In this document: positions 3,001 to 6,000 of the stretch, one piece after another
Numbering within the stretch: position 1 is the stretch's first letter
Layout of the letters: every line of letters begins with the position of its first letter
Assembly (NCBI RefSeq): GCF_018977255.1
Contig: NW_024704749.1
Location: forward strand, 3,100,001 to 3,164,000
Direction of reading: 5' to 3'
Length of the DNA: 64,000 bases
Source: Callorhinchus milii
Taxonomy: Eukaryota
Made by a program: the position numbers

Positions 3001-6000
3001 ATCTACAACGATACAGAGAATAATAACGATACAGCTTTGAAGGTACAACAAGGGGAAAACATTAACATGAAATAATGCAAACTTGAGCTGTTGAAATAAA
3101 CTGCAGTGACAACTACAGGTGTTAAACCGTCATCGAAATGCTGCAAAGAGGAAGTTGGTTTCTCGACAGCGGGATCGGGGCACTCCGGTACCCACAAGAT
3201 GGTGGGGGGGGGGGGGGGGGGGGGGTCGGGGGAGGAACATTCTCCGGTAAATCCTCCATGAGCTTTTGGGGGAGGGTACATTTTCTCGTTTCATGCATCT
3301 GATTGCCTGATGGACAGCAGCTTTTAAATATGATGTTACTCCTTTTGGCAATATAAAAGCTTAGCGTAAAGATTGTATTAAATGTTGTAGTAAATGGTTA
3401 CGTATACACGTTTATTTAGTTCTATAGACATTGGTGGGCTGACTTTTAATTCATTTGCAGTTTAATTTCAAAGTTGGTTGTTTTTCACGAACCTCATGAA
3501 ATCGCTCTCAGATAACGACCGCAATTAACAATTTTCCCAAATTCTGCGCAATAAGTTTAAATTTTAGGACGCAATAGTTTGGGGGCTCCAATTAATTAAA
3601 CGCAATTACAACTGCTGACGCCTCTGTGCCACACTGGAGAAGAAGTTTGAGGCAGGACAGCAAGATGCTGAATGTGCTATTCGTGTTCCTTTGTGTGTGT
3701 ATAATTTTATGATGGAATATTGCTTCCCGTATGACGGCATTCTGTAGATTTGCCATTTTATTACATACTTAACGTTTATCTAAATATTCATACATTAATA
3801 ACAAATAAACTAGTTGTTTTGGAAAAAGAAAGAATGATATCAAAAAGAGAAATTGAAGAAAAAGAGGACAATGGAAGAGACATTTTATTAAGCTGTGGCT
3901 TATGGTATTTCTGTAATTTTACACAATGGGTTTGATCATTGAAGCGTGTTCACATTGCAAGATACAACCATTCAATTCCAGCAAATTGACAAATATTATT
4001 CTTGCCGGTTTTAAGGCAATACAAGAAACATCTAAATGCCATTTCCTTCGGTTTAGAAATTTATCGAAAGTGTTTACAAAGTGAATCTGTTTCTCAATTT
4101 GGACATTCCTGGTAAAATGAACTTCAATTTCAAAATACCACAAAGGTAGATATTCGATTAGCGCTCCACATTCTTGATTTAGGTACAACTGGATCTGGCG
4201 ATGCTTTTCTCGAGCGGAGTGGTCAGAGTCTGGTGTTTGACCACACAGGAATACAGGTCGTGTGACTCCCACTCGGAGGTTGGCAGAGTCAGATAACTGC
4301 TCACACTGTACGTGTTGTCCGCCTGCTGTTTGATCGCACTCGTTTCAACACCTTGACTTCTGGCACTGCCATCCACAGTCCACTCGACCTCCACAGCTCC
4401 CGGGATAAAATCATTCACCAGACACACCAGGGTCGCCTTGCTCTTTGCTGTGATTTGATCTGGTGAAGGCGGAAGGACAGTCACCGAAGGGCCCTGTGAG
4501 TCTGGAAGGAAAAAAAATAGTATTCAGATCATGTCCACTACATGATTAATTAAAATAGTTGAAATTATTTTTCTTAATATCTTAAGATTACAATCGTCCT
4601 GTTCAATCGCACGACACAACTTCAAGATCGCTAATAACTACAACAATACAGTAATTCACATTCGCGTAAATGGCAGAACATTTTCTTGTCTATTGACGGT
4701 ACTGTTCAATTGTGGCAAAGTCTATCTATATCAAGGGAACAATCAGTGCTGGGGTCACTACTGATAGACAAATGTCTGGGGGCTGCTCATCATACACACT
4801 TCATTATTATACATACTATCATTAGTTGGCGGATGAGCGGTTAAACAGGGACCACATGTTCAAAATATTCCTGTATTGAAGAAATTAAATCTTACAATCG
4901 ACAGAAATAACACCAGACACTAACATATCCCGTCACAGGAAGTATATGGCGGGAACACCTGATTGAAAGCGCAGTAACACATTATTGTTAATTCTATCCA
5001 TTGTTTCCCTTCACAGAGGAGAGAACGTGCAGCAAATGGATATAAATATCTGTCTGTGTTTTCAACTGAACACCCAATTGCGACTAATTCAGTGTAAATC
5101 TAAATACGCATTATTCGGCTTTAAATCCAATTATGCGCAATCTGACCTTCCTTGACAACGGAGCTGCTAATCTTTGAGCGATGTTTGGGATTTGAAGAAT
5201 CGCCATTCACGAATGTAGGTCATTTGTTATTCATATCTCAAAATGTTATTATTTACCAATACAATCAGAATATTATTAATCTCAAAATCAAATTGAATCT
5301 TGTTGGAGTGACTATGACATACCGATAAAAATAACAGCCGAATGCTTTCACCCCAACTATAAATAAGCAGATCCATCAATGATGGGGGTTTTTTACAGTC
5401 ACAGCAGCAGATACAAAGATTGTGAAAATCTCTTTTCAGCAAACAGAAAATCAATTCAGGAGCACAATCAGGTTCCAATATTTCAATCGCTGCGGAAAGT
5501 AACTTCACAAGTCTTCAATAATTGATTTGGCATCGTGTTAACTGAATTTAGTCCCTAATTAACAGCGCACTACAGTTACAGTTAATGCATAGGTCGGGAT
5601 CCTCACAACTAATAGGAAACAATGAAGTTAATTTTCAAAGGAGAAAATATATTTTGTGTGTTGAGCGGATTGAGCCGTCTCTCGGGCTGTGGCTTCTCTC
5701 ACAGTTGATCAAATCTGAACAATTACAGCCACTTGGTGGTGGAACATGTGACATTCATGAGTATTTGCTGTTCATTGCAGTTGTGCTCCCCTGAGTGACA
5801 TGAAACACGGAATTGGGAGAAAATAAAACATTTGAAGAAATCCAAAAAGAAATCTGCAGAAAATGTTAAAATAGAAGCGTTTTCTAAGGGGAGGAATAAT
5901 ATTTCCAAGTCATATTATTGTTGTGGAGTAAGGAAACTGGCCCAAGGTTTCACCCTGCTGGAAATCGAAACCAAGTCTCTCGCTTACAAAGCAAGTACTC

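What the first reader, a model, noticed from the sequence alone, without database searches (positions are those of the whole stretch)
4233..4498. 266-bp identical tract between orphan C1 and functional C2: gene conversion, or one VJ serving two C exons
By eye, 4233-4498 and 14021-14286 are identical including synonymous sites, while flanking introns differ visibly. The last ~45 coding nt differ at 7 positions (QTLTTPLEKSIAR vs ESLTIPLEKTITR). At 5 of these 7, C1 agrees with pseudo-C3. This mosaic points to recent conversion. C1 lies ~10 kb downstream of C2 in the same orientation with an intact acceptor, so read-through splicing VJ to C1 could give a second C-terminal isoform from one invariant VJ (inference).
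Basis: partly seen in the sequence, partly recalled or inferred. Interest (0 to 1): 0.65.

Follow-up and report, generated by a model that had tools for sequence, protein, structure and literature searches.

The report
Gene conversion between tandem light-chain constant exons
Two copies of an antibody light-chain constant exon about 10 kb apart share a 266-base stretch of perfect identity inside otherwise 12%-diverged DNA, which is the ordinary footprint of recent gene conversion, and the downstream copy is most likely a leftover of a gene cluster that lost its variable part.

Summary
4233-4498 and 14021-14286 are identical at 266 of 266 bases. They sit in a 2.5-kb duplicated unit whose non-exon flanks differ at 11.9% on both sides. 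The next-longest identical run is 52. 0 of 20000 permutations reached 266. Even if only the 62.3 synonymous sites were free to change, P(no difference) = 3.7e-4.

Both tracts lie on the minus strand inside lambda-like Ig C1-set exons: C1 4501-4179 and C2 14289-13967. C2 follows a germline-joined leader-VJ with an octamer promoter. C1 belongs to a tandem sister unit that lacks 2,992 bp, which in unit 2 hold the promoter, leader, VJ and the start of the J-C intron. A third exon, C3, is dead but was also homogenised earlier.

Best reading: repeated interlocus gene conversion among three tandem C exons, with C1 a relic kept open by the last patch.

C1's acceptor is as good as C2's. A conserved poly(A) signal follows C2, and no transcript data could be consulted.

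This is an ordinary phenomenon and a clean example of it.

The parts
4233..4498 (-). Identical tract, copy in orphan exon C1
   Evidence: 266/266 identical to 14021-14286. It is the longest run in the unit alignment; the next is 52, and 0/20000 permutations reach it.
14021..14286 (-). Identical tract, copy in exon C2
4179..4501 (-). C1: complete lambda-like constant exon (2 nt + 106 codons + TAA) with no V or J upstream
   Evidence: Pfam C1-set E=1.6e-28. Best PDB sequence match is the human lambda C domain. AF2 model pLDDT 90.1, and the Foldseek top 50 are antibody Fab/antibody entries, mostly chains labelled L, TMq 0.83-0.90. tblastn with both VJ proteins finds no V/J near it.
13967..14289 (-). 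C2: constant exon 1,729 nt downstream of the germline-joined VJ
   Evidence: Pfam C1-set E=8.4e-29. Open frame and stop. Acceptor.
27844..28166 (-). C3: dead constant exon (acceptor CAG->CAA, in-frame TAA). Homology to the other units stops about 30 nt upstream of it.
   Evidence: It differs from C1=C2 at 10/266 tract sites (1 synonymous, 9 not) against about 24% in the flanks. Identical runs of 103 and 77 nt; 0/5000 permutations reach 103.
4199..4232 (-). Unconverted tail block: 7 C1/C2 differences (5 replacement, 2 silent). They map to the F-G loop and strand G of the modelled domain.
16019..16369 (-). Germline-joined VJ exon (VJa), one open frame from FR1 to J, followed by the donor A|GTAAGT
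   Evidence: translation; donor; acceptor. Pfam V-set 6.7e-17. Best PDB matches are lambda-6-type V domains.
16460..16508 (-). Leader exon of VJa (ATG at 16508, donor GT at 16459)
16634..16641 (-). Octamer ATTTGCAT about 130 nt upstream of the leader ATG, followed by an AT-rich box
   Evidence: The motif itself is recalled knowledge of Ig promoters.
3444..5919 (-). Duplicated unit 1 (part of the J-C intron, C1, 3' flank), collinear with 13209-15717
   Evidence: (86.7% over 2535 columns).
13209..15717 (-). Duplicated unit 2, the counterpart of 3444-5919
5919..5922 (.). Deletion junction in unit 1. Unit 2's 15718-18709 (2,992 bp) has no counterpart here. That stretch holds the first 301 nt of the J-C intron, VJ, leader, promoter and SINEs. 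The right edge lies inside a tRNA-Ala-derived SINE.
3884..3889 (-). AATAAA about 290 nt after the C1 stop, conserved in all three units. C1 lacks the 13-nt GT-rich block that follows it in C2 and C3.
13660..13665 (-). AATAAA about 300 nt after the C2 stop, followed by a GT-rich block and a T-rich block

Best explanation
The window holds three tandem units of about 9-10 kb from a lambda-like, germline-joined immunoglobulin light-chain minicluster, read on the minus strand. Only the middle unit is still complete: octamer promoter, leader, fused VJ, 1.7-kb intron, C2, poly(A) signal. The downstream unit lost its promoter, leader and VJ in one roughly 3-kb deletion and keeps only C1. The upstream unit keeps only a dead C3.

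The C exons have repeatedly been homogenised by interlocus (non-allelic) gene conversion. An older event made all three exons alike. A recent short patch of 266-268 nt copied sequence between C1 and C2. It stopped at the mismatch-dense tail block on one side and 3 nt inside the exon's 5' end on the other.

The patch probably stayed inside the exon because the exon was already an island of high identity in diverged flanks, and heteroduplex formation needs near-identity. That step is inferred. C1 is most likely a relic whose open frame is a by-product of the patch.

Shown: the identity, the flank divergence, the deletion junction and the state of C3. Inferred: the mechanism, the order of events and C1's lack of function. 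The direction of transfer is unknown.
For: Tract identity:
- 266/266 identical. The next-longest run is 52, and 0/20000 permutations reach 266.
- Flanks differ at 11.9% on both sides, 167/1404 and 86/723. P(0 differences in 266) = 2e-15.
- 0 differences at 62.3 synonymous sites where 7.4 are expected, P = 3.7e-4. Purifying selection alone therefore cannot explain the identity.
- The unconverted tail of the same exon differs at 7/54 = 13.0%, the background rate, with pN 0.13 and pS 0.16.
- Divergence on both sides excludes a recent duplication or a single unequal crossover.

C3:
- Its exon differs from C1=C2 at 10/266 sites (1 synonymous, 9 replacement) against about 24% in its flanks. P(<=1 synonymous) = 9e-7.
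- It shares identical runs of 103 and 77 nt; 0/5000 permutations reach 103. This points to earlier homogenisation followed by decay.

C1 as a relic:
- The junction at 5919/5922 is clean. Unit 2's 15718-18709 is missing, and homology resumes inside a SINE shared by both units.
- tblastn with both VJ proteins finds no V or J remnant near C1 or C3.

Against: - The tract lies wholly inside the exon. Under uniform placement in the 2535-column unit this has P = 0.026. Identity-dependent conversion explains it, but so would selection to keep C1 working.
- On the C1 branch the tail carries only 2 silent changes, while the C2 branch carries 5 replacements. That is the opposite of what a decaying relic next to a constrained gene would be expected to show. 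The numbers are too small to weigh, and with the Ser/Pro change at 4499 added the contrast is weaker still.
- C1 has no disabling change anywhere, and its acceptor is equivalent to C2's.
- I could not inspect raw reads, so homogenisation of two near-identical paralogues during assembly polishing is not excluded.
- No orthologous locus or second genome was available for a tree-based test. The GENECONV program itself was not run; run-length permutations stood in for it.
Confidence: 0.78

Rival explanations
1. C1 is a working second terminal exon. Transcripts from the single VJ promoter read through the C2 poly(A) site, and the J donor is spliced either to C2 or, over an 11.5-kb intron, to C1. 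This gives two lambda chains that differ at 6 residues: codon 2 plus five positions in the F-G loop and strand G. Conversion plus selection keeps C1 intact.
For: - Same strand, 9,788 bp downstream.
- The C1 acceptor has a slightly longer T run than C2's, and the 17 intron bases next to the exon are identical.
- Complete open frame with both Ig cysteines, the tryptophan and the C-terminal cysteine. It folds as a CL domain, pLDDT 90.1.
- Its own AATAAA at 3889.
- The tract is confined to the exon, P = 0.026.
- No replacement change on the C1 branch in the tail.
- A long transcript alternatively spliced to two constant regions is known for IgM/IgD (passage in PMC4279169 section 3).
Against: - No transcript evidence could be consulted.
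- C2 has a conserved AATAAA with a GT-rich and T-rich region behind it.
- Ten more AATAAA and 7 ATTAAA sense hexamers, a sense-strand LINE reverse-transcriptase fragment and SINEs lie between C2 and C1.
- C1 has lost the 13-nt GT-rich block behind its own AATAAA.
- The open frame is uninformative, since 266 of 323 exon bases were just overwritten.
- The tail differs at the neutral rate, with pN about equal to pS.
- C1's unit arose by deletion of a full cluster, not as a designed second exon.
- One literature search for such usage in light chains gave nothing relevant in its listing of 12 of 73 papers.
Confidence: 0.08
2. The perfect identity is an assembly or polishing artefact. The two exons were already very similar, as C3 is at 96%, and reads from one copy were used to correct the other, which erased a few true differences.
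For: C3 shows that these exons can be about 96% alike without being identical. Paralogues of that similarity are prone to read mis-assignment (general knowledge, not tested). The tract is short and exon-confined.
Against: - The edges are sharp and are followed at once by 7 differences in 34 nt. Short reads that overlap the tract would carry these differences and would be assigned correctly.
- The rest of the 2.5-kb unit is cleanly resolved at 11.9% divergence.
- Even if a few differences had been erased, the exon would still be far more alike than its synonymous sites allow, so conversion would still be needed.
Confidence: 0.07
3. Purifying selection on two functional exons alone, or a very recent duplication or a single unequal crossover, produced the identity.
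For: Exons are normally more conserved than introns.
Against: - 0 of an expected 7.4 synonymous differences, P = 3.7e-4.
- The tail of the same exon evolves at the flank rate.
- Both flanks are equally diverged at 11.9%. A recent duplication or a single crossover would leave at least one flank identical.
Confidence: 0.01

Closest known systems
Concerted evolution of tandem immunoglobulin constant-region genes by interlocus gene conversion, the general phenomenon reviewed in PMC3966226 and PMC3924837 (passages read). The classic cases are recalled from memory and were not checked here: human IGHA1/A2, IGHG genes, mouse gamma genes, gamma-globin.
   Same: A short patch of identity with sharp edges inside diverged tandem paralogues. 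Synonymous sites are homogenised. A non-functional copy takes part. A block of paralogue-specific differences lies right beside the patch, as in the opsin exon 5 case described in PMC3924837.
   Different: Here the partners are single-exon light-chain C genes of miniclusters. One partner has lost its V/J altogether. The patch is confined to the exon, whereas PMC3924837 describes conversion in opsin genes as particularly prevalent in the introns.
Germline-joined lambda (type II / NS3) light-chain miniclusters of cartilaginous fish (PMC5192425 section 5.1, PMC4279169 section 2, PMC2193156; passages read)
   Same: V and J fused in frame in the germline with no recombination signal between them. 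Leader, octamer promoter, one intron to a single C exon with a C-terminal cysteine. Lambda-like V and C by best PDB sequence matches.
   Different: [quoted passage not shown] Here the complete cluster is flanked by two C-only relic units. The species could not be determined, and no phylogeny with named shark isotypes was possible.
IgM/IgD co-expression from one long transcript by alternative splicing (passage in PMC4279169 section 3)
   Same: Two constant regions lie in tandem downstream of one variable exon. The upstream poly(A) site would have to be bypassed.
   Different: That is a heavy-chain system with documented transcripts and very different constant regions. Here the two exons differ at 6 residues and no transcript is known.
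UrIg2, a non-rearranging VJ gene with several C1-type exons that was automatically annotated as a light chain in elasmobranch genomes (PMC12227049, passage read; PDB 9dmx among the hits)
   Same: An unsplit VJ followed by more than one C1-set exon on the same strand.
   Different: C2 and C1 each end in Cys-Thr-stop with their own poly(A) signal, so they are alternative terminal exons and not successive domains. Their best sequence match is the lambda CL domain, not UrIg2.

Membership tests
Ig light-chain constant exon (C1-set, lambda-like) | Match to the C1-set domain profile above the curated cut-off | tested here: met
   C1 99.3 bits and C2 100.2 bits against a cut-off of 21.
Ig light-chain constant exon (C1-set, lambda-like) | Intradomain cysteine pair, conserved tryptophan, and a C-terminal cysteine before the stop | tested here: met
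   C26, W40, C85 and C105 are invariant in C1, C2 and Cb. The frame ends Cys-Thr-stop. The role of the last cysteine in heavy-light pairing is taken from PMC5192425 section 5.1.
Ig light-chain constant exon (C1-set, lambda-like) | Fold of a CL domain | tested here: met
   AF2 model pLDDT 90.1, pTM 0.83. The top 50 Foldseek PDB matches are antibody Fab/antibody entries, mostly chains labelled L, TMq 0.83-0.90.
Ig light-chain constant exon (C1-set, lambda-like) | Lambda rather than kappa or sigma isotype | tested here: inconclusive
   The best single-domain PDB sequence match is human lambda C at 89.5 bits, and the V matches lambda-6-type V. No tree with named cartilaginous-fish isotypes could be built.
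Germline-joined lambda minicluster of cartilaginous fish | V and J fused in frame in germline DNA, with leader, promoter octamer and a splice donor after J | tested here: met
Germline-joined lambda minicluster of cartilaginous fish | [quoted passage not shown] | tested here: inconclusive
   Met for VJa-C2. The C1 and C3 units have a C only.
Germline-joined lambda minicluster of cartilaginous fish | Source organism is a cartilaginous fish | not testable with these tools
Interlocus gene conversion tract | Identical run longer than flank divergence allows | tested here: met
   266 against a next-longest run of 52. 0/20000 permutations reach 266. P = 2e-15.
Interlocus gene conversion tract | Diverged sequence on both sides, which excludes duplication or a single crossover | tested here: met
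   11.9% upstream and 11.9% downstream.
Interlocus gene conversion tract | Synonymous sites homogenised as well | tested here: met
   0 synonymous differences at 62.3 sites where 7.4 are expected, P = 3.7e-4.
Interlocus gene conversion tract | Identity is real in the genome and not made by assembly | not testable with these tools
   No reads available.
Interlocus gene conversion tract | Donor and recipient identified | tested here: inconclusive
   C1 equals C2 in the tract, so C3 cannot polarise it.
Alternative use of tandem C exons by one transcript (IgM/IgD type) | Second C downstream on the same strand with a competent acceptor | tested here: met
Alternative use of tandem C exons by one transcript (IgM/IgD type) | Transcripts that join the same V exon to both C exons | not testable with these tools
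   No transcript data. The peptide strings occur in no held paper.

The most novel reading that the evidence does not exclude
The orphan exon C1 is in use. The single germline-joined VJ may reach it by read-through and exon choice. Alternatively, crossing-over within the 266-bp identical tract may produce deletion alleles that fuse the 5' part of C2 to the C1 tail. Either way an invariant V domain would be expressed with two alternative C-terminal faces, and conversion would keep the spare exon in working order.
Probability: 0.08. Interest if true: 0.55.

Novelty: new member of a known kind. Interest (0 to 1): 0.3.

Why it matters
Gene conversion among tandem immunoglobulin constant genes is textbook, so the main result is confirmatory.

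The locus is still a clean worked example with three time layers in one window:
- duplication, seen as 12% and 24% flank divergence;
- an older homogenisation that included the now-dead C3;
- a patch so recent that it carries no difference.

It also shows how a V-less relic can look like an intact gene, which is a practical warning for automatic annotation of light-chain miniclusters.

If C1 were expressed, it would be the first light-chain analogue of the IgM/IgD arrangement that I am aware of. One search found no precedent.

Tried and rejected
- Purifying selection as the sole cause: rejected on synonymous sites.
- Recent duplication or a single unequal crossover: rejected, because both flanks are equally diverged.
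- Other conversion tracts between units 1 and 2: none. The next runs of 52, 51 and 49 are within the null range, mean 43 and maximum 113.
- '5 of 7 agree with C3' as evidence of a C1/C3 mosaic: not significant (binomial P = 0.45). The second cluster's exon Cb is too distant to polarise the sites.
- A multi-domain UrIg2-like gene, VJ-C-C: rejected, because each C ends in a stop and has its own poly(A) signal.
- V or J remnants near C1 or C3: none at E<1 by tblastn with both VJ proteins.
- Octamer upstream of C1 on the sense strand between 13966 and 4502: none.
- Peptide strings of the C and J regions in the paper library: 0 papers.
- The sandbar shark lambda genomic paper, PMC47676: not held. 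In PMC2192082 only a reference-list passage was retrievable.
- GENECONV itself is not installed, so run-length permutation tests were used instead.

Left unchecked:
- Relatives in protein or genome collections.
- The ESM Atlas, which its description says is not meant for known families or taxonomy.
- The supplementary tables of PMC12227049, which list elasmobranch IgL coordinates and may bear on whether such relic C exons are common.
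Full report
SCOPE AND LIMITS

I take the window to be non-human. It has germline-joined VJ exons and tRNA-Ala-derived SINEs, and it fits a cartilaginous fish, but the species could not be established. Everything therefore rests on the window itself, on Pfam, PDB and Rfam, and on papers.

The joined leader-VJ-C product was not built or searched. The single N at 57198 was left as it is.

1. THE OBSERVATION

Bases 4233-4498 and 14021-14286 are identical at 266 of 266 positions.

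A self-comparison of the window shows that they lie in a duplicated segment, 3444-5919 against 13209-15717, at 86.7% identity over 2535 columns. In a global alignment of that segment there are 346 differing columns: 261 mismatches and 85 gap columns. The longest identical run is exactly the reported tract. The next-longest runs are 52, 51 and 49.

When the 346 differences are placed at random, 0 of 20000 trials reached 266. The null mean was 43 and the null maximum 113. In 100-column windows, identity is 100% across the tract and 70-97% elsewhere.

2. WHAT THE SEQUENCES ARE

Both tracts lie on the minus strand inside immunoglobulin constant exons.
- C1 is 4501->4179 and C2 is 14289->13967. Each has 2 nt, then 106 codons, then TAA. 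Each follows a pyrimidine run and CAG.
- Both match Pfam C1-set, at E = 1.6e-28 and 8.4e-29.
- The best single-domain match among solved structures is the human lambda constant domain, 89.5 bits.
- An AlphaFold2 model of C1 has mean pLDDT 90.1. Its 50 best Foldseek matches in the PDB are antibody Fab or antibody entries, mostly chains labelled L, with TMq 0.83-0.90.

Upstream of C2 by 1,729 nt lies a germline-joined VJ exon, 16369->16019.
- It is one open frame from FR1 through the J motif, followed by the donor A|GTAAGT.
- It matches Pfam V-set at 6.7e-17.
- It is closest to lambda-6-type V domains.
- It has a leader exon at 16508->16460.
- An ATTTGCAT octamer sits at 16641.

This is the architecture that reviews describe for cartilaginous-fish lambda (type II/NS3) light chains, which are germline-joined in every species studied (passages in PMC5192425 section 5.1, PMC4279169 section 2 and PMC2193156).

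3. THE SURROUNDINGS

The region is a tandem array with a period of about 9-10 kb. The blocks are roughly 42-10036, 10036-19221 and 19221 onward.

Unit 1 (C1). It is collinear with unit 2 up to 5919 (equivalent to 15717). It resumes at 5922 (equivalent to 18710), inside a tRNA-Ala-derived SINE that both units share. Unit 2's 15718-18709, which is 2,992 bp, has no counterpart in unit 1. That stretch holds the first 301 nt of the J-C intron, the VJ exon, the leader, the octamer promoter and SINEs. The junction is clean to within 2-3 nt. So C1 is what remains of a once-complete cluster after a deletion.

Unit 3 (C3). Its exon at 28166->27844 is dead. The acceptor CAG has become CAA, there is an in-frame TAA, and homology to the other units ends about 30 nt upstream of the exon.

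tblastn with both VJ proteins of the window finds no V or J remnant near C1 or C3.

Between C2 and C1 lie SINEs and a LINE reverse-transcriptase fragment in sense orientation, 7204-8358.

4. IS THE IDENTITY MORE THAN SELECTION WOULD GIVE?

- Non-exon flanks differ at 167/1404 upstream and 86/723 downstream, 11.9% each.
- At that rate, P(no difference in 266 nt) is 2e-15.
- Under the most conservative null, only the 62.3 synonymous sites of the tract are free to change. Then 7.4 differences are expected and none is seen, P = 3.7e-4.
- The unconverted 54-nt tail of the same exon differs at 7 sites, 13.0%, which is the background rate. There pN is 0.13 and pS is 0.16. The exon is therefore not intrinsically slow.
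- Divergence on both sides rules out a recent duplication or a single unequal crossover.
- The 95% upper bound on tract divergence is 1.1%, about 9% of the flank value. The event is recent relative to the duplication.

5. A SECOND, OLDER LAYER

C3 differs from C1=C2 at 10 of the 266 tract positions, 1 synonymous and 9 replacement. Its 3' flanks differ from the others at about 24%. With 15 synonymous differences expected, P(<=1) is 9e-7.

C3 shares identical runs of 103 and 77 nt with the other two. 0 of 5000 permutations reached 103; the null maxima were 46 and 57.

So the C3 exon was also homogenised with the others after the flanks had diverged. It has since decayed with a replacement-heavy pattern, as expected for a pseudogene. 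The three C exons have evolved in concert.

6. THE TAIL

All seven C1/C2 differences lie in 4232-4199. At five of them C1 equals C3. All five are replacements on the C2 branch: Q/E, T/S, T/I, S/T and A/T. At the other two, C2 equals C3, and both are silent changes on the C1 branch.

A split of 5 against 2 is not unusual (P = 0.45), and the tail as a whole is at background divergence. It is simply the part the last patch did not reach.

In the model the five replacements fall in the F-G loop (residues 90, 91 and 94) and in strand G (residues 99 and 101). By general knowledge of CL domains this is the sheet facing away from CH1. I did not test that.

The dense block of mismatches probably stopped the heteroduplex, which would explain why the tract ends exactly at its first mismatch. 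That step is inferred.

At the 5' side, the mismatch at 4499 (Ser in C1; Pro in C2 and C3) is followed by 17 identical intron bases. The patch may therefore have been slightly longer, with 4499 a later change.

7. WHY THE TRACT IS CONFINED TO THE EXON

A 266-nt tract placed uniformly in the 2535-column unit would fall wholly within the 323-nt exon with P = 0.026.

The simplest reason is that the exon was already an island of near-identity because of the older homogenisation, and conversion needs near-identity. Selection for a working C1 would give the same picture and cannot be excluded.

The tract is also GC-richer than the flanks, 54% against 36%.

8. ONE VJ, TWO C EXONS?

What the sequence permits:
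- C1 lies 9,788 bp downstream of C2 on the same strand.
- Its acceptor region is equivalent to C2's.
- Splicing from the J donor would keep the frame. The codon across the junction would read Asn, then Ser-Gln-Gly-Pro for C1 and Pro-Gln-Gly-Pro for C2. I read this from the sequences and did not join them.
- C1 has its own AATAAA at 3889.

What speaks against efficient use:
- C2 has a conserved AATAAA at 13665 followed by GT-rich and T-rich blocks.
- Ten further AATAAA and 7 ATTAAA sense hexamers lie before C1.
- C1 has lost the 13-nt GT-rich block behind its own signal.
- C1's open frame is uninformative, because only 57 of its 323 exon bases escaped the patch.

The literature search found no precedent for a light-chain VJ spliced to two C exons; I saw the listing of 12 of 73 papers only. 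The IgM/IgD arrangement is the nearest known mechanism (passage in PMC4279169 section 3). I rate this reading at about 8%.

9. OTHER RIVALS

A polishing artefact cannot be excluded without reads. It would not remove the need for conversion, because even a few erased differences would leave far fewer synonymous differences than the flanks predict.

A multi-domain UrIg2-like gene (PMC12227049, passage read) is excluded, because C2 and C1 each end in a stop with their own poly(A) signal.

10. VERDICT

Gene conversion is well supported and turns out to be recurrent among three C exons. The orphan status of C1 is explained by a mapped deletion. Dual-C use remains an untested possibility.

The phenomenon is well known for immunoglobulin constant genes and other tandem families (passages in PMC3966226 and PMC3924837; the specific classic cases are recalled, not checked). 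I therefore file this as a new member of a known kind, of modest interest.

Noticed in passing
window 51173-53715 (+): A second, apparently intact germline-joined light-chain cluster lies on the opposite strand. It has an octamer at 51173, VJb at 51721-52035 (V-set 7.2e-14) and Cb at 53383-53712 plus a stop (C1-set 1.9e-24). It is also closest to lambda and is 52% identical to C1 in protein. It is transcribed away from cluster A, and its FR1 carries an extra cysteine. Leader and splice sites were not checked.
   Followed up: partly
window 6972-8906 and 21714-23643: These are two LINE-like copies with reverse-transcriptase ORFs, 92% identical and in inverted orientation. They bracket the only complete cluster, VJa-C2. 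Such a pair could mediate an inversion. This was not examined.
   Followed up: no
window 5955-6017, 13092-13164, 17570-17641, 17973-18034, 18737-18809, 25500-25571, 39117-39188, 60815-60886, 63124-63186: A family of SINEs of about 330 bp has tRNA-like heads. Rfam finds 9 tRNA matches, and ARAGORN reads 6 of them as tRNA-Ala(TGC). Many further copies appear in the self-comparison. One copy is partly duplicated in tandem at 18109-18470, period 179.
   Followed up: partly
window 3855-3870 versus 13626-13652 and 27495-27521: C1 lacks a 13-nt GT-rich block that follows the conserved AATAAA in both C2 and C3. This may weaken C1's poly(A) site.
   Followed up: no
window 28167-28460: The sequence directly upstream of the dead C3 exon has no counterpart in the other units or elsewhere in the window. 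A SINE fragment follows at 28461-28528. How C3 lost its intron and VJ was not resolved.
   Followed up: partly
window 4743-4843 and 4940-5038; 3913-4012: These are windows of 94-97% identity between units 1 and 2 in the J-C intron and the 3' flank. Their identical runs of 49-52 nt are within the permutation null. They could be conserved regulatory blocks or chance.
   Followed up: partly
window 57198: A single N. It was left untouched.
   Followed up: no
window 37299-37602: GA/CA-rich 22-nt-period simple repeats.
   Followed up: no
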